A stretch of DNA of 64,000 bases from Acidimicrobiia bacterium (GCA_965216495.1 OZ244163.1:683361-747360), one strand, 5' to 3'. Positions 47,547 to 55,191 are shown, counted from the first letter of the stretch. Notes: generated from the letters alone by a model not told the origin. Numbers and translations: made by a program.

Positions 47547-50500
47547 TTAGCTGCAGCCCGTTGTGTCGCCGCAGGTGAGGCACACGTAACAACTGCCGTT
47601 GCGAACCGTCATGTGGCCACAGTTGGAGCACGCAGGCGCATCGCCCATGTTCTCCGACAGAGCTGCGTCGGCAACAGCAGCTTTGCCGTTGGCGGTTGCG
47701 GCCATGGCCTTGGCCGGCTCAGGCGCTTTGACCTTGTCGTCGGAACTATCGAGAAACTCGACAGCCGATTTCACTGCCTCGACGTCGGCATCGGCGGCGG
47801 CATCCGTCAGATCTAGCTGGACCCCGGCGTCGGCGGCGAGACCTGCTGGCGGCTCCGGGAAGTCGCTGTCCCGGTTCGGGGGAACCTGGGCCAGCTCATC
47901 GCGGTGCAAGTACTCGACTCCGAGGGCGCGGAACACATAGTCAACGATGGAGTTGGCCATCTTGATGTTGTCGTGTCCCTCGACCATCCCTCTCGGCTCG
48001 AAGGTTTGGAACGTGAAGGTGTCCACGTACTCCTCGAGCGGAACGCCGTACTGGAGCCCCTTCGATACGGCGATGGCGAAGCAGCTGAGGATTCCCTTGA
48101 GGGTCGCCCCTTCCTTGGCCAGGTCGATGAAGATCTCACCGAGGGTGCCGTCGTCGTACTCGCCGGTCCGGAGGAACACCTTGTGTCCACCGACCCGTGC
48201 CTCCTGGTTGAAGCCGTTGCGGCGTGCCGGAAGCATGAAGCGCGGTGGCTTGATTCCCTGGGCGTACGCCTGCGTTGGCGAGATTCCTGCTGGCAGGTTG
48301 CCCCAGTGAATCACCTTCTCCGTTTCGATGGCCTTGGCCAGCTCTTCGGACTCTTCCTCGCCGTCGTCGCCCTCGTCGGCCGTGGCGTTCAGCGGCTGCG
48401 CCGCCTTTGAGCCGTCTCGGTAGAGAGCCATCGCCTTGAGGCCGAGCTCCCATGAAAGGAAGTAGGCATCTTCGATCTCTTCGACGGTCACCTCGTGAGG
48501 CATGTTGATTGTCTTCGAAATCGCACCCGAGATGAACGGCTGAGCGGCGGCCATCATCTTGATGTGACCGTTGTGGTGGATGTAACGCTTCCCGTATCGA
48601 CCGTTCTTGTTGGCTGTATCGAAAACAGCCAGATGGTCGTCGGCGATGTGAGGAGCCCCTTCGATGGTCTGGCGGCCACAGATGTGGTCGTTGGCTTCGG
48701 TGATCTCAGCCCTGGAGAAGCCGAGAGCCTTGAGTAGGTCGAAGTCCCATCCGGTGTAGTCGTCCACCGTGAAGCCGAGCCGCTGAAGAGTGTCCTCGCC
48801 AAACGTGAAGACGTTGAAGGCGTGCTTCAGCTCGAAGACCCCGGGCAGGGTTGCCTGGAGCTTGATCAGGTCCTCTTCCGAGAAGCCAATCTCGAGAAGC
48901 GACTCGGTGTTGATGTGGGGAGCGCCTTCGATCGAGCTGGTTCCCACGATGTACGTGACAACGTTTTCGATCTGATCGGAGCTGTAGCCGAGACGGTTCA
49001 ATGCTGGAGCGACCGACTGGTTGACGATCTTGAAGTAACCGCCACCGGCCAGCTTCTTGAACTTCACGAGGGCGAAATCAGGCTCGACGCCGGTCGTGTC
49101 ACAGTCCATGAGGAGTCCGATAGTTCCCGTTGGTGCCAACACCGTGGCTTGAGCATTCCGATAGCCGTGCTCTTCGCCTCGCTCGAGGGCTAGGTCCCAT
49201 GACTCCTGGGCGGCCGTCACCAGCTCTGCTGGGCAGACTGCAGCATCGATACCCATGACCTTCGTGGAGATGTTGTCGTATTCGTCTCCGTCGTAGGCGG
49301 CGACACGATGGTTGCGGATGACCCGCAGCATGGCATCGCGGTTCTCGTCGTACTTGGGGAACGGTCCGGTCACTTCGGCGATCTCTGCCGAGGTGGCATA
49401 CGAGTATCCGGTGAGGATCGAAGTGAGGCCACCGGCGATGGCCCGACCATCGTCGGAGTCGTAGGCGATGCCCTGTCGCATCAGAAGAGAACCGAGGTTG
49501 GCGTAGCCGAGACCGAGTGTCCGATAGTCGTAGCTGCCCTGAGCGATTTCTCTCGAAGGGAAGTGGGCCATGGCCACCGAGATTTCCAGAACGATGGTCC
49601 ACAGCCGAATGGCGTGCTGGTAGGCGGCCACGTCGAACTCACCGGTCTTGTCGTCGTACAAGCGGACGAGGTTGATCGACGCCAGGTTGCAGGCCGTGTC
49701 GTCGAGGAACATGTATTCAGAGCACGGGTTGGAAGCGTTGATTCGACCGCCGGCAGGGCTGGTGTGCCATTCGTTGATTGTCGTGTCGAACTGGAGCCCA
49801 GGGTCGGCGCAGGCCCAAGCGGCCTCGGCGATACGGTTCCACAGGTCTCTGGCTTTGATGGTCCTACGCACGGAGCCGTCGACTCTGTTGATCAGATCCC
49901 AATCGCCGTCCTCTTCGACTGCCTTGACGAAGTCGTAAGAAACCCGGACCGAGTTGTTCGAGTTCTGGCCGGAGACCGTGGCGTATGCCTCACCGTTGAA
50001 GTCGGCGGGATAGCCACCAGAGGAGATGAGGACCTTGGCCTTCTCTTCTTCGATCTTCTTCCAGTCGACGAAAGTCTCGATGTCTGGGTGGTTGACGTCG
50101 AGGATGACCATCTTTGCGGCGCGTCGGGTTGTACCGCCTGATTTGATGGCGCCGGCAGCCCGATCACCGATCTTGAGGAAAGACATGACTCCCGAGGACT
50201 TGCCCCCACCGGAAAGCAGCTCGCCCTCACCTCTGATCTTGGAGAAGTTGGAGCCGGCACCGGAGCCGAACTTGAAGATCCGTGCTTCACGAACCCATAG
50301 GTCCATGATGCCGCCCGGGTTGACCAGGTCGTCCTCCACACCGTTGATGAAGCAGGCGTGGGGAGCGGGTCGGCTGTAGGAGTCCGGTGACTCGACAAGC
50401 TCGCCGGAGTCCTCGTCTACGTACCAGAAGCCTTGAGCCGGGCCAGTGAGTCCGTAGGCGTGGTGCAGGCCGGTGTTGAACCATTGAGGAGAGTTCGGTG

Positions 50501-50912
50501 CTGCGATCTGGTCGGCGAGCATGTATTTGAGCTCGTCTTCGAAGGCATCGGCGTCAGTGGCGTCGGCGAAATAGCCGCCCTTCTCACCCCAATGCCTCCA
50601 GGTCTTGGCAAGCCGATCAAAAACTTGCTTGGCGGACCGCTCCGGTCCGGTGACCGGGTTTCCTGAATCGTCAAGGATGGCGTTGCCGTCGCCGTCGAAC
50701 TGGGGGACTCCAGCCTTGCGGAAGTACTTCGAAACCATGATGTCGGATGCGACCTGGCTCCATCCGGCCGGAATCTCGGCATCGGTCATCTCAAAGACCA
50801 CAGATCCGTCGGGGTTCACGATCTTCGAGTCTCGTGTCGTCCACTCGAAGTTTTGGTAGGGGTTCTCACCTGTCTGGGTGAACCGTCGGGTAATCCGTAA
50901 GCCTTTGCTCAT
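47547..50912 (-). CDS. nrdJ: Adenosylcobalamin-dependent (class II) ribonucleoside-diphosphate reductase
   Basis: Full-length class II RNR signature (...[21 protein letters not shown]...) with a C-terminal Cys-rich tail [26 protein letters not shown]. Start is the ATG at 50912 ([11 protein letters not shown]). Confidence 0.95.
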   Translation of the reverse strand: [1121 protein letters not shown]

Positions 50913-51023
50913 ACTGCAGTGCCTCCTCGCACACTTGCCGTCCCGAAACCGCCTGGTCCGATTGTCGGGAATACGTCCATTGCCAATACCAACCACAAGA
51001 TGTTGTGGCATGCGGGGAAGTGG

Positions 51024-51041
51024 CCACTACATATTGTATGG
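51024..51041. promoter_or_regulatory. NrdR-box-like palindrome upstream of nrdJ
   Basis: ccACTACATATTGTATgg loosely matches the NrdR consensus acaCwAtATaTwGtgt. A second palindrome, TGTAATTACA, lies at about 51052-51061. Confidence 0.45.
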
Positions 51042-51117
51042 ACTTCAATACTGTAATTACACGCGTGTGATGCGTCAACTACCAGAGTTTTCCACAGGTA
51101 GCAGCGTCTGAAACGCT

Positions 51118-51188
51118 CGGGGGAAGCGGACGCGGGACACGACCGGGGGAAGCGATTTGCACCCTAGACCCAACGGGAAGCGATTGAC
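51118..51188. repeat. Three direct repeats GGG(GG)AAGCGATT in the nrdJ far-upstream region
   Basis: cgGGGGAAGCGgA (51118), ccGGGGGAAGCGATTTGC (51145), acGGGAAGCGATTGAC (51175), spaced 27-30 bp apart. Confidence 0.5.
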
Positions 51189-51223
51189 CAGCTGTGCGAC
51201 TGTCGCGTTTTCGCGACTACTGC

Positions 51224-51775
51224 TCAGCTCTCCTCGATATCAACCTCGAGTTTCCCATCGTGCCATTCGACCCGTATCTCGAACTCGTATTCCTCAGACT
51301 CGAACGACACCCTCACCTTGGGTGGGCCTGCATCCTCGAGTTCGGTTTCGAACCCGGCGGCCGGTGTCGCTGACACAAATTCGACTTCTTCCGGACGATG
51401 GCGGACCACCACCGTGCCACCGCCCGTAGGAATCGTTCGCAGGGTCCATTCTTCGGTTTCGGTGGTTGTGGGTGATGGCGATGGAGACGTTGCCGGAACT
51501 GTGGTTGGCGGTGACGTAGCAGGAGTGCTCATCGTGGTCGTGGTCGACGAGGTGGGCAAGGTATCGAAAGTGGTGGAGGTGGAACCGACGATGCTGTTGT
51601 CGACGGTGGTCGAAGTCGAGGCAGATGATGTGGGGAGTGGGTCCGCCACCACCGTTGCCGGGGGTGCGTTGAGTCGGCTATCGGCGGCACGCACAATCTG
51701 CCAGGCGAAGCCTGTTGTGATTATCAGAACGAGCAACCACGCAGCGACCAGCTTGGCGATATTCACGAGTTCCAT
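51224..51775 (-). CDS. Secreted/membrane-anchored protein with S/T/P-rich linker and C-terminal PepSY-like domain (paralog A)
   Basis: N-terminal TM (LVAAWLLVLIITTGFAW), a T/S/P-rich linker, then a C-terminal ~70-aa domain ...KVRVSFESEEYEFEIRVEWHDGKLEVDIEE. Confidence 0.55.
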   Translation of the reverse strand: MELVNIAKLVAAWLLVLIITTGFAWQIVRAADSRLNAPPATVVADPLPTSSASTSTTVDNSIVGSTSTTFDTLPTSSTTTTMSTPATSPPTTVPATSPSPSPTTTETEEWTLRTIPTGGGTVVVRHRPEEVEFVSATPAAGFETELEDAGPPKVRVSFESEEYEFEIRVEWHDGKLEVDIEES

Positions 51776-51868
51776 TCTCGCCGCCGATTGGCAAACGTTT
51801 ATCAAACCAACCTCAAGGTTTTATCAAGGGCACTGGTTCTTTGGCGCGTCGCAGATAATCTCGGCGTT

Positions 51869-52552
51869 GTGGCCCAGATCGTTCTGATCGAAGATGACGT
51901 ACAGATTCGTCAACTTGTCGCCCGGTCTCTGGCCGACGGTGGCCACGATGTCGAGTCGGCAGCCGCGGCGCTCGAAGGGTTGGAGCTGGTGGTCAAGGGC
52001 AACCCCGACCTGGTGATACTCGACCTTGGTCTGCCGGATCTTGATGGCACCGAATTGCTTCGAATGATCCGCGCGGTGAGCCAGGTGCCGGTGATCATCG
52101 TGACTGCCAGGGGAGCTGACGACGTTGTCGTCAAGACCCTCGACGCCGGTGCTGATGACTATCTGGTCAAGCCCTTCTCGATGAGTCAGCTCGAAGCCAG
52201 GATCCGCGCCATTCTGAGACGAGGAGCCGGGGAGGAGCAGGAAGGCCCCATCCAAATCGGCGCTCTCGTTCTCGATCGGCGGGCACGGACGGTGGTGCTT
52301 GACGACAAGCCGGTGGAGTTGAGCCCCAAGGAGTTCGACCTGTTACACGTTCTGGCTGACCGAGTGGGCCAGGTGGTCAGCAAACGCGACTTGATGGCAG
52401 AGGTCTGGCGGGAACCTTATGGGGGCTCGGACCGGACGCTCGACGTGCATCTTTCGTGGCTCCGCTCCAAGCTCGGAGAGTCGGCATCGAATCCGGTGTA
52501 CATCCACACGGTCCACGGCGTGGGTGTCAAGCTGGTGGACCCGACCAGTTGA
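51869..52552 (+). CDS. OmpR-family two-component response regulator
   Basis: Receiver (...VLIEDD...LVILDLGLPDLDG...) plus winged-helix output. The GTG start at 51869 gives ~227 aa. Confidence 0.85.
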   Translation: MAQIVLIEDDVQIRQLVARSLADGGHDVESAAAALEGLELVVKGNPDLVILDLGLPDLDGTELLRMIRAVSQVPVIIVTARGADDVVVKTLDAGADDYLVKPFSMSQLEARIRAILRRGAGEEQEGPIQIGALVLDRRARTVVLDDKPVELSPKEFDLLHVLADRVGQVVSKRDLMAEVWREPYGGSDRTLDVHLSWLRSKLGESASNPVYIHTVHGVGVKLVDPTS

Positions 52553-53826
52553 GGAGTCGGCTGCGTTGGATGAGCCTGGCGACGACATCCCTGGTCGTCG
52601 TCTCCCTCATCGTTCCTCTCGCCCTCCTCGTGCGCCGTCAGGCCGAGGAAGGTGCCGTGTCCGACGCGGAGTTGCGTGCCTCTTCGATGGCGTCGCTTAC
52701 CGCGCTCGCAATGGCGGTCGACCCAGCTCCCGACTCGGTGCGCAATGCACTCGGGCCGCTACCGGCGGGGACCATTGTGGCGCTGCCTGACGGCCAGACC
52801 CTCGGCACAGCGTTCTCTGCCCAACCGAGCCTCGCCGAGAGGGCGGCTACCGACGCGGCCACTCTTTCGGAGATGGTTCAAGGCGGATGGGAGGTGGCGA
52901 TACCCGTGGTGGCCAGGAGTGGTGTTGCTGTTGTCGACGTATTTGTGCCTATCGAAGACCTACGAAGCGGTGTGTCGGGAGCTTGGAGTCTTCTTGCATT
53001 GCTGGGAGTCGGATTGATTGCGGCTGCAGCTGTGGTTGCCGAAGCCCTCGCTCGACAGTTAGCGCGTCCGATGGCCACGGTTGCCGGGTCGGCGCGGCGA
53101 TTGGCCGAAGGAGACCTGGACGCTCGCGTCGAGGTCGACGGTCCCGGAGAAATTCGTGACGTTGCCGCTGCTTTCAACTATCTGGCCAGACGTCTCAACG
53201 AATTGCTAGCGGAGGAAAGGGAGTCGATGGCCGATCTGTCACACCGACTGCGAACGCCCTTGACTTCGCTACGTCTCCAGGCCGACTCTCTGAACTCCGT
53301 CGATGAAAGACAGGAGATGCTTGTTCAGGTGGATCGTTTGGAGGGTGCCGTCAGTGAGCTGATCGAAACTGCCCGGTCTCCCGGAGCGCGCGAGGCATCT
53401 TCCGTCGTCTTGGATGAAGTGGTCCGCTCAAGAGCGGCGTTTTGGAAGGTTCTTGCCGACGAGCAAGACCGTGCGATGGAGATCTCGGTCGGAAGCGGTG
53501 GCGCATCGGTAGGGCTCAACCAGCCTGACTTGGCCTCTCTGATAGACGTCCTCGTCGAGAATGTCTTCAGTCATACCGAACCGGGCACCGGCTTGGGTGT
53601 GAGAACGGGTGTGAGTGGCCGGGGTGTCTATCTCGAGGTGGTTGACGATGGTCCGGGGATTCCGGCATCTGTGATCCAGCGTGGAGTCAGCGGCGGGGGT
53701 TCAACGGGTCTCGGACTGGATATTGCTCGACGACTGGTGGTCTCGGCTGGAGGAACGTTGGACACGGACGACCGCCAGGGAGGGGGAGCGATCGTCCGTG
53801 CAACCTTTGGGGAATCAGTCGTCTGA
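52549..53826 (+). CDS. Two-component sensor histidine kinase
   Basis: Two TM segments flank an external domain, followed by HAMP, the H-box (...MADLSHRLRTPLTSL...) and the ATPase G-boxes (GTGLGL). The start overlaps the response-regulator stop. Confidence 0.85.
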   Translation: MRSRLRWMSLATTSLVVVSLIVPLALLVRRQAEEGAVSDAELRASSMASLTALAMAVDPAPDSVRNALGPLPAGTIVALPDGQTLGTAFSAQPSLAERAATDAATLSEMVQGGWEVAIPVVARSGVAVVDVFVPIEDLRSGVSGAWSLLALLGVGLIAAAAVVAEALARQLARPMATVAGSARRLAEGDLDARVEVDGPGEIRDVAAAFNYLARRLNELLAEERESMADLSHRLRTPLTSLRLQADSLNSVDERQEMLVQVDRLEGAVSELIETARSPGAREASSVVLDEVVRSRAAFWKVLADEQDRAMEISVGSGGASVGLNQPDLASLIDVLVENVFSHTEPGTGLGVRTGVSGRGVYLEVVDDGPGIPASVIQRGVSGGGSTGLGLDIARRLVVSAGGTLDTDDRQGGGAIVRATFGESVV

Positions 53827-54456
53827 GTCGTCGTCCTCGTCGTCTGAGTCGTCGTCCTCGTCGTCCTCGTCGTCTGAGTCGTCGTCCTCGTCGTCCTCGT
53901 CGTCTGAGTCGTCGTCCTCCTCGTCCTCGTCGTCTGAGTCGTCGTCCTCATGGTCCACTTCGATCTCGATCGACACGGCGCCGTGTTCGAACTCGGCTTC
54001 GAATTCGACCTCGGTGTCGCCTCGTGACCATTCCAGCTCGATCTTGTCGGGTTCAAGCTCCTGACTGTCGAGGTCCCACCCTGGAGCGGAGAAGTCGACG
54101 AGAACCAGGCGGCCGTTGCTGACTTCGATAGTCACCGACCCCACACCGGGCACTTCGCAGGTCCGCGGGCCGAAGTCTTCCACTGGATCGTCGTCCATGC
54201 TGGTCGAGGTGGTGGACTCGATGGTTGTAGACGTGGTTTCGCCCTCGGTCGTCGATGTCGTGTCTTCAACAGTTGTCGAGGTGGTGTCGTCGTCAATCGT
54301 CGAAGTGGTTGCCTCCGATGTCGAAGTGGTGTCCTCGATGGTCGACGAGGTGCTGACCGAAGGTGAATGATCCTCGGACGCCCAAGCGACTCCGACGAGG
54401 AGTAGCGCCACTGTGAGAGCGGTCAACAGTCCGATGGTTTTGCTGAACATGGCCAT
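53815..54456 (-). CDS. Secreted protein with S/T-rich linker, PepSY-like domain and poly-acidic (DDDSDDEDDE)n C-terminal tail (paralog B)
   Basis: Signal/TM (LLTALTVALLLVGVAWA), a T/S/E/D-rich linker, and the domain ...KIELEWSRGDTEVEFEAEFEHGAVSIEIEV paralogous to 51224-51775. A ~43-residue acidic repeat tail follows. The 3' end overlaps the histidine-kinase gene convergently by 12 bp. Confidence 0.6.
   Translation of the reverse strand: MAMFSKTIGLLTALTVALLLVGVAWASEDHSPSVSTSSTIEDTTSTSEATTSTIDDDTTSTTVEDTTSTTEGETTSTTIESTTSTSMDDDPVEDFGPRTCEVPGVGSVTIEVSNGRLVLVDFSAPGWDLDSQELEPDKIELEWSRGDTEVEFEAEFEHGAVSIEIEVDHEDDDSDDEDEEDDDSDDEDDEDDDSDDEDDEDDDSDDEDDDSDD
53822..53950. repeat. Tandem ~36-bp coding repeat (gtcgtctgagtcgtcgtcctcgtcgtcctc)n
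   Basis: About 3.5 near-identical units encoding DDDSDDEDDEDD on the minus strand. The plus-strand poly-Ser ORF over it is an antisense artefact. Confidence 0.8.
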
Positions 54457-54531
54457 GTCTCCTTGGTTGAGGCACAGCCAAGTCTTTCGGACTGGGTGTC
54501 AGGGGCGCTTCAGGGAAGTCTCAAGATGATG

Positions 54532-55191
54532 TCAACGTGCGGGATGGTCCCAGGAGTCCTCTGGGCGACCGGTATCGACAGTCCATCGAGGGAGGAAGAA
54601 CTGGACGATTGGCCCAATCAGAAGCGCGAAACCGATTGTTCCGATCCCGAACGTTCCCCCGAGAAGGATGCCGATCACCAATACGACAACCTCCATGACC
54701 CATCGGGTCAGACGAATCGAAGGTCCTCTTCGCGCGATTGCGGTCATCAGGCCGTCGCGCGGCCCCGGACCCAAGTTGGCGCCGATGTATAGGCCCGACG
54801 CGATACCCACTAGGAGAATGGCGACTCCAGACATCGCGATCTGGCCGACGGTTGTCGCCGGCTTGGAAACAACGGCCGAGGTGATGTCGATGAACGCCCC
54901 AATCAAAATGGCGTTGAGCAAGGTGCCGATGCCGTAGCGCTCACGGAATGGAATCCAGAGAAGGAGGATGACGAAGGAGAGGAGGATCGACCAGACCCCC
55001 ACCGTCAGGCCGAACTGCCGGGTGAGTCCCTCCCCGAGCACATCCCACGGCGGCAACCCCTGCCCCGATTCGAGCATCAACCCGATGCCGATTCCGAAAA
55101 GGATCACCCCTACGAGAAGTTGTGCCAGTCTCCGATTCCGGTTCAGGCCGGATACCGGGATGAAACTTATCAACGGCCTTTCACTCGTCAT
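54532..55191 (-). CDS. YitT/DUF161-like integral membrane protein
   Basis: 219 aa and polytopic, with ...GIGIGLMLESGQGLPPWDVL... like the YitT/YczE family. Confidence 0.55.
   Translation of the reverse strand: MTSERPLISFIPVSGLNRNRRLAQLLVGVILFGIGIGLMLESGQGLPPWDVLGEGLTRQFGLTVGVWSILLSFVILLLWIPFRERYGIGTLLNAILIGAFIDITSAVVSKPATTVGQIAMSGVAILLVGIASGLYIGANLGPGPRDGLMTAIARRGPSIRLTRWVMEVVVLVIGILLGGTFGIGTIGFALLIGPIVQFFLPRWTVDTGRPEDSWDHPAR

What the first reader, a model, noticed from the sequence alone, without database searches (positions are those of the whole stretch)
51224..54456. Two-component system bracketed by paralogous PepSY-like secreted proteins, one with a poly-acidic tandem-repeat tail
The OmpR-type response regulator (51869-52552) and histidine kinase (52549-53826) are flanked on both sides by minus-strand genes of the same unusual architecture.
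- Each has a signal or anchor helix, a long Ser/Thr(/Pro)-rich linker, and a ~70-aa C-terminal domain.
- The two C-terminal domains are clearly homologous: ...FETELEDAGPPKVRVSFESEEYEFEIRVEWHDGKLEVDIE versus ...WDLDSQELEPDKIELEWSRGDTEVEFEAEFEHGAVSIEIEV.
- Both end in a PepSY-like ...EyEvE...G.levdiE pattern.
- Paralog B additionally carries a ~43-residue (DDDSDDEDDE)n tail encoded by near-perfect 36-bp DNA tandem repeats (53822-53950).
- Paralog B's 3' end overlaps the histidine-kinase 3' end convergently by 12 bp.

This looks like a sensor module in which extracytoplasmic accessory proteins flank the kinase; the acidic tail could be cation- (Ca2+/metal-) binding. No such arrangement is named in standard TCS families.
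Basis: partly seen in the sequence, partly recalled or inferred. Interest (0 to 1): 0.6.

Follow-up and report, generated by a model that had tools for sequence, protein, structure and literature searches.

The report
Two-component system with paralogous envelope partners
An actinobacterial sensor kinase and regulator pair is kept together with two related secreted or membrane-anchored proteins of an unnamed all-beta domain family (not PepSY), and both partner genes carry the same predicted regulator-binding repeats, so the four genes appear to form one self-contained envelope signalling unit.

Summary
An OmpR-type regulator (51869-52552) and a HAMP histidine kinase (52549-53826) are bracketed by two minus-strand genes, A and B. 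Each has an N-terminal helix, a Ser/Thr-rich linker and a ~75-aa C-terminal domain.

- **Paralogy:** the two domains are homologous. Pairwise similarity is weak (22% identity), but profile-profile comparison gives 98.9% probability, E 1e-17. Both AlphaFold models have the same seven strands.
- **Corrections:** the acidic-tail repeat is 30 bp, not 36. The domain is not PepSY: there is no Pfam hit, it has no helix, and Foldseek finds no PDB match.
- **Family:** it belongs to a large family that neither Pfam nor NCBIfam covers (1370 cluster representatives). Members also sit next to other two-component systems and an ECF sigma factor.
- **Synteny:** in related metagenome contigs with enough flank, A sits beside the regulator in 58/60, the kinase in 34/34 and a B-type gene in 19/21.
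- **New finding:** phased (C)TTGA direct repeats, 11 bp apart, lie over the -35 region of both A and B. These are the only two such sites in 64 kb, and they are conserved upstream of B in 19/20 loci.

I infer that the regulator activates both paralogs. They probably also feed back on the kinase, but that was not tested. The acidic tail is a disordered, lineage-specific expansion.

The parts
51224..51766 (-). Gene A: a membrane-anchored paralog of 180 aa from GTG 51766 (alternative starts are 51775 ATG and 51805 TTG). It has an N-terminal TM helix with the conserved W..T...WQIV..A motif, a Ser/Thr/Pro linker and a C-terminal domain.
   Evidence: ORF. The start is inferred from the alignment of 58 intergenic regions, which shows a -10 element, 7 nt, then GTG/ATG, with coordinates. 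TM conservation is 50% against 31% for the linker.
51227..51454 (-). C-terminal domain of A (residues 105-180): a seven-strand all-beta domain of an unnamed family.
   Evidence: The AF2 model has pLDDT 94.6, seven strands and no helix. The family has 1370 representatives at E<=1e-3. There is no Pfam or NCBIfam match.
51791..51828 (-). Predicted RR-binding site upstream of A: three CTTGA/TTTGA direct repeats 11 bp apart, plus a degenerate fourth (TTTGC). It lies in the divergent RR-A intergenic region.
   Evidence: The repeats are conserved in the alignment of 58 intergenic regions. The pattern search matches only here and upstream of B, against 0.29 expected. The PWM score is 35.2 bits.
51774..51779 (-). 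-10-like hexamer GAGAAT of the A promoter, 7 nt before GTG 51766. This implies a leaderless mRNA (inferred).
   Evidence: The column is conserved as GAcAAT.
51856..51861 (+). -10-like hexamer TAATCT of the RR-HK operon, 7 nt before GTG 51869. This also implies a leaderless mRNA (inferred).
   Evidence: The RR-to-A start spacing is constant at about 92-93 nt across 65 loci.
51869..52552 (+). OmpR/PhoB-type response regulator, 227 aa.
   Evidence: Response_reg 2e-28 and Trans_reg_C 7e-25. It is below every NCBIfam equivalog cut-off; the best is MtrA at 181 bits against a cut-off of 300.
52549..53826 (+). Sensor histidine kinase, 425 aa: TM1, a ~120-aa extracytoplasmic loop, TM2, HAMP, HisKA and HATPase_c. 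Its start overlaps the RR stop (TTGA).
   Evidence: Pfam domains, sequence. Among 28 orthologs TM1 is the most conserved segment, at 71% against 47% for the loop.
53815..54456 (-). Gene B: a secreted paralog, 213 aa from ATG 54456. ATG 54450 fits the Shine-Dalgarno spacing better. It has a signal-peptide-like N-terminus (..LLLVGVAWA), a Ser/Thr/Asp linker, the domain and an acidic tail.
53950..54174 (-). Domain of B (residues 95-169), homologous to the A domain.
   Evidence: hhalign gives 98.9% probability and E 1e-17. The AF2 model has the same seven strands with pLDDT >=95.
53818..53949 (-). Poly-acidic tail of B (44 aa, 39 of them Asp or Glu). It is encoded by 30-bp tandem repeats (TRF 53828-53956, 4.3 copies, 96% matches).
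   Evidence: The tail is predicted to be coil with pLDDT 52-60. No C-terminal tail this acidic (>=80% Asp/Glu in 10-aa windows) occurs in the 22 other B-position proteins.
54499..54536 (-). Predicted RR-binding site upstream of B: four GTTGA/CTTGA/CCTGA/CCTGA direct repeats 11 bp apart, in the same orientation as B.
   Evidence: A PWM trained only on A-upstream sites scores this site at 20.3 and 18.2 bits, against 8.0 for the next best hit in the window. The equivalent site is the best non-A hit in 19/20 loci, at -66 to -82 from the B start.

Best explanation
This is a conserved four-gene envelope-signalling cassette of Acidimicrobiia and other Actinomycetota. It has an OmpR-type response regulator and a HAMP histidine kinase, plus two paralogous extracytoplasmic proteins. 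A is anchored by a conserved TM helix and B is secreted. Each carries one copy of an unnamed ~75-aa seven-strand all-beta domain, which is not PepSY.

Both A and B have the same three to four (C)TTGA direct repeats, phased 11 bp apart, over the -35 region of their promoters. The A copy sits in the intergenic region shared with the leaderless RR-HK operon. The most likely mechanism (inferred) runs as follows:
1. An envelope signal is sensed through the kinase's ~120-aa loop.
2. The regulator is phosphorylated and binds the repeats as tandem dimers.
3. It activates A and B, and perhaps its own operon.

The two partner genes stay attached to the system in distant lineages, sometimes inside the operon. 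The TM helix of A and TM1 of the kinase are unusually conserved. I therefore think A and B also act back on the kinase as accessory or feedback components, possibly as a two-domain pair, since most family members carry two domains in one chain.

The poly-acidic tail of B is a recent, lineage-specific 30-bp repeat expansion and is predicted to be disordered. Asp-rich tails and linkers recur in B-type proteins, so a role in cation binding or in surface charge is possible but unproven.
For: **Domains and genes**
- establish the four genes and their Pfam domains.

**Paralogy**
- Searches show that the two domains are homologous.

**Fold**
- The AF2 models reach pLDDT 94.6 and >=95 in the domain. 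Both have seven strands and no helix.

**Family size and architectures**
- There are 1370 representatives at E<=1e-3.
- Architectures are TM plus 1 domain, signal peptide plus 1-3 domains, lipoprotein plus 2 domains, and anti-sigma-like with 2-4 domains.

**Synteny in 80 metagenome loci**
- The RR is next to A in 58/60 loci, the HK in 34/34 and a B-type gene in 19/21.
- B abuts the HK 3' end in 22/23.
- NrdJ (10/35) and YczE (5/17) are not conserved neighbours.

**Distant cassettes**
- The bracket is kept with B co-directional and carrying two domains.

**Regulatory motif**
- RR-A spacing is constant at about 93 nt.
- Phased repeats are conserved, followed by a -10 element 7 nt before the start codon.
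- Only two sites exist in the 64 kb, against 0.29 expected.
- A PWM trained on A-upstream sites picks the B-upstream site as the best other hit in the window (20.3 bits against 8.0) and in 19/20 loci.
- Duplicated B-type genes each carry their own site.

**TM conservation**
-.

**Signalling context of the family**
- A member sits next to an ECF sigma factor.

**Tail**
-.
Against: - No binding, expression or interaction data exist. The motif could belong to another regulator.
- The loci are not phylogenetically independent, so the counts overstate the number of independent observations.
- The window site itself was included in PWM training. This affects only the 35.2-bit score of the A site, not the B sites.
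- The PWM does not match in the most distant cassettes, so co-regulation is shown only for the closer clade.
- Feedback on the kinase rests on synteny and TM conservation alone.
- The domain has no conserved His, Cys or other obvious ligand-binding residue; the conserved positions are Gly, Pro and hydrophobic.
- Two B-position genes lack the domain.
- Signal peptide and TM calls are by eye, not by a dedicated predictor.
Confidence: 0.6

Rival explanations
1. One reading: A and B are PepSY-like accessory sensor proteins flanking the kinase, as in DbfQ-DbfRS-type modules, and the acidic tail binds Ca2+ or another metal.
For: - The arrangement resembles known PepSY-TCS modules, including cases with two PepSY genes and opposite-strand layouts (PMC12714742).
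- Acidic PepSY proteins such as UipA and LanP bind metals (PMC9988556).
- The A and B domains are very acidic, with net charges of -13 and -15.
Against: - A and B have no PepSY HMM hit, and only 1 of 57 family members has one, at E 0.017.
- The models are all-beta with seven strands and no helix.
- No PepSY structure appears among the listed Foldseek hits.
- The tail is absent from B orthologs.
- The local proteome is generally acidic, with pI 4-5 for most proteins.
Confidence: 0.05
2. A and B are only outputs of the system. They are envelope or surface proteins induced by the regulator, for example structural, protective or adhesive surface proteins, and have no effect on the kinase.
For: - Both promoters carry the predicted RR boxes.
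- The proteins have long Ser/Thr-rich linkers, typical of surface-exposed actinobacterial proteins (established knowledge; sequence).
- B-type genes duplicate together with their promoter, and some copies lose the domain.
Against: - Pure target genes rarely stay glued to their TCS across such divergence and changes of gene order.
- In some lineages B is co-directional directly after the HK, like lpqB, cseA and afsQ3 (PMC9739842).
- The TM helix of A is as conserved as its domain, and HK TM1 is the most conserved HK segment.
- The same domain forms the extracytoplasmic part of an anti-sigma-like protein next to an ECF sigma factor.
Confidence: 0.3
3. The system is a metal or cation homeostasis module. 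The acidic beta domains and the Asp- and His-rich tails buffer or present a cation, and the kinase senses its level. This would be analogous in function to UipA-UipRS or PhoQ.
For: - Asp-rich tails, often with His, Asn, Ser and Gly, recur in the family: 12 of 149 representatives have tails with >=40% Asp/Glu.
- A CDF cation-efflux gene sits next to one cassette.
- A multicopper oxidase and a BlaI/BlaR-like pair sit next to the anti-sigma-type member.
- There is weak profile similarity to the copper-binding protein YcnI, at E 0.003 over 38 residues.
Against: - The domain has no conserved His, Cys or Met.
- Tail position and presence vary.
- YcnI is not among the Foldseek hits.
- The neighbouring genes are inconsistent across loci.
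- The proteome is acidic overall.
Confidence: 0.12
4. The adjacency is chance, and A and B are spurious low-complexity ORFs.
For: - Full-length BLASTP of A against B finds nothing.
- Much of each ORF is low-complexity.
Against: - The N-terminal helix and C-terminal domain are conserved in the same frame across 80 loci.
- The domain models are high-confidence.
- Synteny and shared promoter motifs are conserved.
Confidence: 0.01

Closest known systems
DbfQ-DbfRS and related PepSY-TCS modules (Vibrio cholerae; PA2658/PA2659-BqsRS in P. aeruginosa), PMC12714742
   Same: Small secreted proteins are encoded next to an OmpR-type TCS. There are sometimes two paralogs, sometimes on the opposite strand. 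The accessory protein binds the kinase sensor domain and controls its output.
   Different: The domain is PepSY (alpha/beta, Pfam PF03413). Here it is an unrelated seven-strand all-beta domain with no Pfam model. One partner is membrane-anchored. Interaction with the kinase has not been shown.
CseA-CseBC (Streptomyces sigE operon), AfsQ3-AfsQ1Q2 and LpqB-MtrAB: actinobacterial 'three-component' systems (PMC9739842)
   Same: These are in the same phylum. An extracytoplasmic lipoprotein or anchored protein is kept next to an OmpR-type TCS and is thought to modulate the kinase. In distant relatives of this cassette the B-type gene is likewise co-directional after the HK.
   Different: Those systems have one accessory protein, not a paralogous pair. 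No sequence relationship was detected: A and B match no NCBIfam model, and the RR is below the MtrA and CseB cut-offs. CseA itself could not be compared directly.
CpxP-CpxAR (E. coli)
   Same: An extracytoplasmic protein would be both a regulon member, with RR boxes in its promoter divergent from the TCS operon, and a feedback modulator of the kinase. This is the logic proposed here for A.
   Different: CpxP is an all-helical periplasmic protein of Proteobacteria and is not homologous. Feedback here is inferred only.
UipA and LanP (acidic PepSY metal-binding proteins; PMC9988556)
   Same: They are small, highly acidic, beta-rich extracytoplasmic domains that work as pairs (a dimer or a two-domain pseudodimer). 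UipA is anchored by a single-pass TM helix, like A.
   Different: They have the PepSY fold and demonstrated metal binding. Neither has been shown here.
HbpS-SenS-SenR (Streptomyces)
   Same: A secreted accessory protein acts together with the TCS (PMC9739842).
   Different: HbpS is a haem-binding octamer of an unrelated family, and there is a single accessory protein.

Membership tests
PepSY domain (Pfam PF03413 / PF13670) | Significant match to the PepSY profile HMMs | tested here: not met
   A and B have no PepSY hit even at E<=1. Only 1 of 57 family domains gives PepSY_2, at E 0.017, well below the cut-off. The sub-threshold PepSY_TM hit in A (E 0.096, 12.9 bits against a cut-off of 28.8) lies in the TM and linker region.
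PepSY domain (Pfam PF03413 / PF13670) | Alpha/beta fold: a helix packed against a small antiparallel sheet (from my own knowledge of PepSY structures such as UipA, 7ATH) | tested here: not met
   The AF2 models of A (pLDDT 94.6) and B (>=95 in the domain) have seven strands and no helix. No PepSY chain appears among the 50 listed Foldseek PDB hits for either model, and no hit reaches E<=0.001.
OmpR/PhoB-type two-component system | RR with a receiver domain and a winged-helix Trans_reg_C domain; HK with HisKA and HATPase_c | tested here: met
   Response_reg 2e-28, Trans_reg_C 7e-25, HAMP 1e-14, HisKA 4e-8, HATPase_c 2e-13.
OmpR/PhoB-type two-component system | Membership of a named equivalog (MtrAB, CseBC, PhoBR, EnvZ/OmpR and others) | tested here: not met
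   The best RR scores are MtrA 181 bits against 300 and CseB 176 against 350. The best HK score is EnvZ 91 against 415.
OmpR/PhoB-type two-component system | Target promoters with direct-repeat half-sites about one helical turn apart | tested here: met
   (C)TTGA repeats lie 11 bp apart upstream of A and B and are conserved across loci. Actual binding by this RR is not testable with these tools.
TCS with extracytoplasmic accessory proteins (three- or four-component systems: CpxP, CseA, LpqB, DbfQ types) | Accessory gene conserved next to the TCS across relatives | tested here: met
   RR 58/60, HK 34/34 and B 19/21 in loci with enough flank. Distant cassettes keep the arrangement.
TCS with extracytoplasmic accessory proteins (three- or four-component systems: CpxP, CseA, LpqB, DbfQ types) | Accessory protein located outside the cytoplasmic membrane | tested here: inconclusive
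   The N-terminal hydrophobic helices and an AWA-type cleavage motif are visible in the sequences. No signal-peptide or topology predictor was available.
TCS with extracytoplasmic accessory proteins (three- or four-component systems: CpxP, CseA, LpqB, DbfQ types) | Physical interaction with the kinase and an effect on its output | not testable with these tools
   The evidence is only indirect. HK TM1 is 71% conserved and the A TM region 50% against 31% for the linker. No multimer prediction was available.
Unnamed seven-strand beta domain family (this work) | Both A and B domains match the family profile and each other | tested here: met
   hhalign gives 98.9% probability and E 1e-17. Cross-detection gives 7e-15 and 2e-17. 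The A+B profile finds 1370 representatives.

The most novel reading that the evidence does not exclude
The ~75-aa seven-strand domain defines a new, widespread actinobacterial family of extracytoplasmic signalling modules. It is used by two-component systems and by ECF anti-sigma factors. In this cassette the anchored copy (A) and the secreted copy (B) would assemble into a two-domain unit on the kinase. A's conserved TM helix would dock on HK TM1. The result would be a four-component sensor whose partner proteins are themselves induced by the regulator, giving built-in feedback. The Asp-rich tails would tune cation or surface-charge sensing.
Probability: 0.3. Interest if true: 0.7.

Novelty: new variant of a known kind. 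Interest (0 to 1): 0.55.

Why it matters
Two-component systems with extracytoplasmic accessory proteins are known. Their accessory domains are few and mostly come from Proteobacteria and Firmicutes.

- **A new domain family.** This family is large (over 1300 clusters at 50% identity) and has no Pfam or NCBIfam model or any source-given name among the homologs retrieved. It is repeatedly wired to envelope signalling in Actinomycetota, next to both two-component systems and an ECF sigma factor. Its predicted fold has no Foldseek match in the PDB.
- **A compact, testable regulon.** The cassette has two operator sites, two leaderless promoters and two paralogous outputs. It comes from Acidimicrobiia, a class with almost no experimental genetics.
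- **A curation target.** If the partners prove to control the kinase, the family would join PepSY/DbfQ, CpxP and YycH/I as a general class of kinase modulators. It would then deserve a Pfam entry.

Tried and rejected
- **Exact look-ups.** Look-ups of A (193 and 183 aa), B (213 and 211 aa) and the HK in the contig index found nothing. The cluster look-up gave no names.
- **Word-indexed homolog searches.** The search with the A domain alone found nothing. The search with a broad domain alignment found only 10 unnamed hits. The exhaustive representative search was what opened up the family.
- **Genome-contig scan.** The scan with the HK returned only distant, unrelated kinases. No species-level taxonomy or cultured relative was obtained.
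- **RNA genes.** Rfam and tRNA scans of the window were empty.
- **Literature.** A search for the Acidimicrobiia TCS found nothing relevant.
- **Rejected: YcnI/DUF1775 relationship.** The profile hit is weak (E 0.003 over 38 residues) and no fold match supports it.
- **Rejected: NrdJ and YczE as cassette members.** They are present in only 10/35 and 5/17 loci.
- **Not attempted: an artificial A-B fusion for structure prediction.** The tool is restricted to natural sequences.

Full report
**1. What is in the sequence**

ORF listing and Pfam scans confirm four genes.

- **Gene A** is on the minus strand at 51224-51805.
- **The response regulator (RR)** is OmpR-type at 51869-52552, with Response_reg at 2e-28 and Trans_reg_C at 7e-25.
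- **The histidine kinase (HK)** is at 52549-53826, with HAMP, HisKA and HATPase_c. Its start overlaps the RR stop (TTGA).
- **Gene B** is on the minus strand at 53815-54456.

B ends in 44 residues, of which 39 are Asp or Glu. The HK and B stop codons overlap convergently by 12 bp.

One detail is wrong. Tandem Repeats Finder gives a 30-bp period (one DDDSDDEDDE unit), with 4.3 copies and 96% matches at 53828-53956. The period is not 36 bp.

**2. Are the two domains paralogous?**

Pairwise evidence is only marginal.
- Full-length BLASTP finds nothing.
- Domain-only BLASTP gives E 0.002 over 43 residues.
- A Smith-Waterman shuffle test gives p of about 5e-4.
- Identity is 22%.

Family-level evidence is decisive.
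- A profile of the two domains found 1370 cluster representatives at E<=1e-3 and 249 at E<=1e-10 among 1.84 billion proteins.
- I collected ortholog sets of A and B from 80 related loci. Their domain alignments match each other in hhalign at 98.9% probability, E 1e-17, over 72 columns.
- A profile containing no A-position sequence finds A at 2e-17. That profile does hold other family domains with the same GPD motif.
- A and B are the only carriers of the domain in the 64 kb.

**3. It is not PepSY**

- Neither protein hits PepSY in Pfam at E<=1.
- Of 57 family domains scanned one by one, a single one gives PepSY_2, at E 0.017.
- No Pfam or NCBIfam family covers the domain.
- Every source name seen is 'hypothetical protein', apart from one JGI label, 'cytoskeletal protein RodZ'.
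- AlphaFold2 models are confident. A has mean pLDDT 94.6 and pTM 0.79. B has pLDDT >=95 across the domain. Both show the same seven consecutive beta strands and no helix. From my own knowledge, PepSY is an alpha/beta fold.
- Foldseek against the PDB gives no hit at E<=0.001 for either model. The best TM score is below 0.5, to up-and-down sheets such as FABP/P2, avidin and lipocalins.
- A PDB sequence-profile search gives only noise.

**4. Lineage and synteny**

Named homologs come from Acidimicrobiia, Actinomycetota and Actinomycetia MAGs. A itself is on record from a 2.3-Mb NCBI/ENA contig.

A metagenome scan with an alignment of A-type proteins returned 80 loci whose A proteins are 33-58% identical to the window's. 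Counts below use only loci with enough flanking sequence.

| Neighbour of A | Loci with it / loci with enough flank |
|---|---|
| RR, divergent and adjacent | 58/60 |
| HK | 34/34 |
| B-type gene convergent on the HK | 19/21 |
| NrdJ downstream | 10/35 |
| YczE upstream | 5/17 |

Where both genes are present, the B-type gene abuts the HK 3' end (gap of 60 nt or less) in 22/23 loci. The conserved unit is therefore B> <HK <RR A>.

More distant cassettes keep the bracket but vary it.
- P0218 is a two-domain B in the same layout.
- P0212 is a two-domain B placed directly after RR-HK on the same strand, with an A-type gene divergent from the RR.
- In an Actinomycetia MAG, a 26%-identical A-type gene is divergent from RR-HK, and a two-domain B-type gene lies co-directionally downstream of the HK.

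The loci are related to one another, so the counts are not independent events. The divergence and the rearrangements still argue for selection on the linkage.

**5. A shared regulatory motif (new)**

- The distance between the RR and A start codons is nearly constant at 92-93 nt in 65 loci.
- The aligned intergenic regions show three CTTGA/TTGA direct repeats exactly 11 bp apart. In the window the site is CTTGATAAAACCTTGAGGTTGGTTTGA at 51802-51828, minus strand, with a degenerate fourth repeat. A -10-like GAcAAT hexamer follows, then 7 nt and the A start codon.
- The RR has a TAATCT hexamer 7 nt before its GTG. Both transcripts are therefore probably leaderless. A probably starts at GTG 51766.
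- Searching the whole window for the triple repeat with up to 2 mismatches finds only this site and one directly upstream of B. That site is 54499-54536, GTTGA-N6-CTTGA-N6-CCTGA-N6-CCTGA, in B's orientation. The chance expectation is 0.29 matches.
- A weight matrix trained only on A-upstream sites scores the B-upstream site at 20.3 and 18.2 bits. The next best position among about 128,000 scores 8.0.
- In 19 of 20 loci with a B gene, the best non-A hit in the whole locus lies 66-82 nt upstream of the B start, on B's strand. The one failure has B cut by the contig end.
- Extra, truncated B-type gene copies carry their own site.

Direct repeats one helical turn apart over the -35 region are the standard operator layout of OmpR/PhoB-family regulators (established knowledge). 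The simplest reading is that the adjacent RR activates A and B, and perhaps its own operon. This is an inference; no binding was tested. The matrix does not match in the most distant cassettes.

**6. Do A and B act on the kinase?**

Nothing here shows it directly. Five observations favour it.
1. The linkage survives changes of gene order, and in some lineages B is an operon member after the HK. This is the position of lpqB, cseA and afsQ3 in other actinobacterial systems (PMC9739842).
2. A's TM and juxtamembrane segment is as conserved as its domain, at 50% against 53% mean pairwise identity. The linker is at 31%. The segment has an invariant W..T...WQIV..A pattern.
3. TM1 is the most conserved part of the HK, at 71% against 47% for the sensor loop and 57-64% for the cytoplasmic domains. 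Points 2 and 3 together would be expected if the two helices contact each other.
4. The same domain forms the extracytoplasmic part of an anti-sigma-like protein encoded right after an ECF sigma factor. Similar long membrane proteins carry 2-4 copies.
5. Two domains per chain is the commonest family architecture, in 83 of 150 top representatives. The single-domain proteins are largely the A and B types, which occur as a pair in one cassette. An A-B two-domain unit is therefore plausible.

The main rival is that A and B are only induced surface proteins. It cannot be excluded, and I give it 0.3.

**7. The acidic tail**

- It is predicted to be unstructured, with pLDDT 52-60.
- It is encoded by near-identical 30-bp units, so it is a recent expansion.
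- Among 23 distinct B-position proteins, only the window's has a C-terminal tail with >=80% Asp/Glu in 10-aa windows.
- Seven of 21 have comparable acidic stretches in the linker instead.
- Distant B-type proteins and 12 of 149 family representatives carry Asp-rich C-terminal tails, often with Asn, Ser, Gly and His.
- The neighbouring proteome is generally acidic, with pI 4-5. The domains show no conserved His, Cys or Met.

Cation binding is possible, by analogy with acidic PepSY proteins such as UipA and LanP (PMC9988556). It is unsupported here.

**8. Comparison with known systems and verdict**

The closest functional parallels are these.
- The DbfQ-DbfRS-type PepSY modules, which include two-paralog and opposite-strand variants (PMC12714742).
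- The actinobacterial CseA, AfsQ3 and LpqB systems.
- CpxP-CpxAR, for the 'target that feeds back' logic (my own knowledge).

None is homologous to A or B. The RR and HK fall below every NCBIfam equivalog cut-off.

I classify the finding as a new variant of a known kind: a two-component system with extracytoplasmic partner proteins. The partners are a paralogous pair from an unnamed domain family, and a concrete predicted operator is shared by both partner genes.

- **Interest:** 0.55.
- **Confidence, cassette, non-PepSY domain and co-regulation (together):** about 0.8.
- **Confidence, kinase-feedback step:** about 0.45.
- **Confidence, overall:** 0.6.

Noticed in passing
window 51012-51223 (minus strand, upstream of nrdJ 47547-51011): The class II ribonucleotide reductase gene downstream of A has its own sigma-70-like promoter (TTGACG-17-TACAGT, 51078-51050). 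An NrdR-box-like palindrome (CATACAATATGTAGTG, about 51031-51046) lies just before the start codon. No cobalamin riboswitch was found by Rfam.
   Followed up: partly
window 51202-51217 (minus strand): A 6-bp GC-rich hairpin (GTCGCG-AAAA-CGCGAC) sits immediately after the A stop codon, without a T run. It may be a terminator separating A from nrdJ.
   Followed up: no
window 54450-54464: The Shine-Dalgarno sequence AAGGAGA ends 1 nt before ATG 54456, but it is well spaced for the second ATG at 54450 (MFSKT...). This matches the ortholog N-termini (MFRKML.../MARKML...), so B is probably 211 aa.
   Followed up: partly
L057 2057-2542 and L012 1095-1675: Some relatives carry a second B-type gene in tandem. 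It keeps the signal peptide, the Ser/Thr/Asp-rich region and its own copy of the phased TTGA repeats, but lacks the beta domain. L040 has only such a domain-less gene at the B position.
   Followed up: partly
L085 2114-2977: One relative has a third family member, with a signal peptide and two domains, directly downstream of A.
   Followed up: no
L095 443-5301: A family member with a cytoplasmic N-terminus, a TM helix and the domain follows an ECF sigma factor gene. Its neighbours are a BlaI/CopY-like repressor, an M48 peptidase and a multicopper oxidase, which hints at a copper or envelope-stress context.
   Followed up: no
window 52570-52640 (HK residues 8-29) and orthologs: TM1 of the kinase (RRRL...SLA.T.LVV....PL.LLVRRQA) is its most conserved segment. 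It is more conserved than the catalytic domains.
   Followed up: partly
window 38000-64000: Most predicted proteins in this part of the window are acidic, with pI 4-5 and Asp+Glu well above Lys+Arg. This suggests a generally acidic proteome, possibly a saline habitat.
   Followed up: no
window 54532-55191 (minus strand): The gene upstream of B is a YczE-family membrane protein (NCBIfam NF052291, 216 bits against a cut-off of 205). It accompanies the cassette in only 5 of 17 loci.
   Followed up: yes
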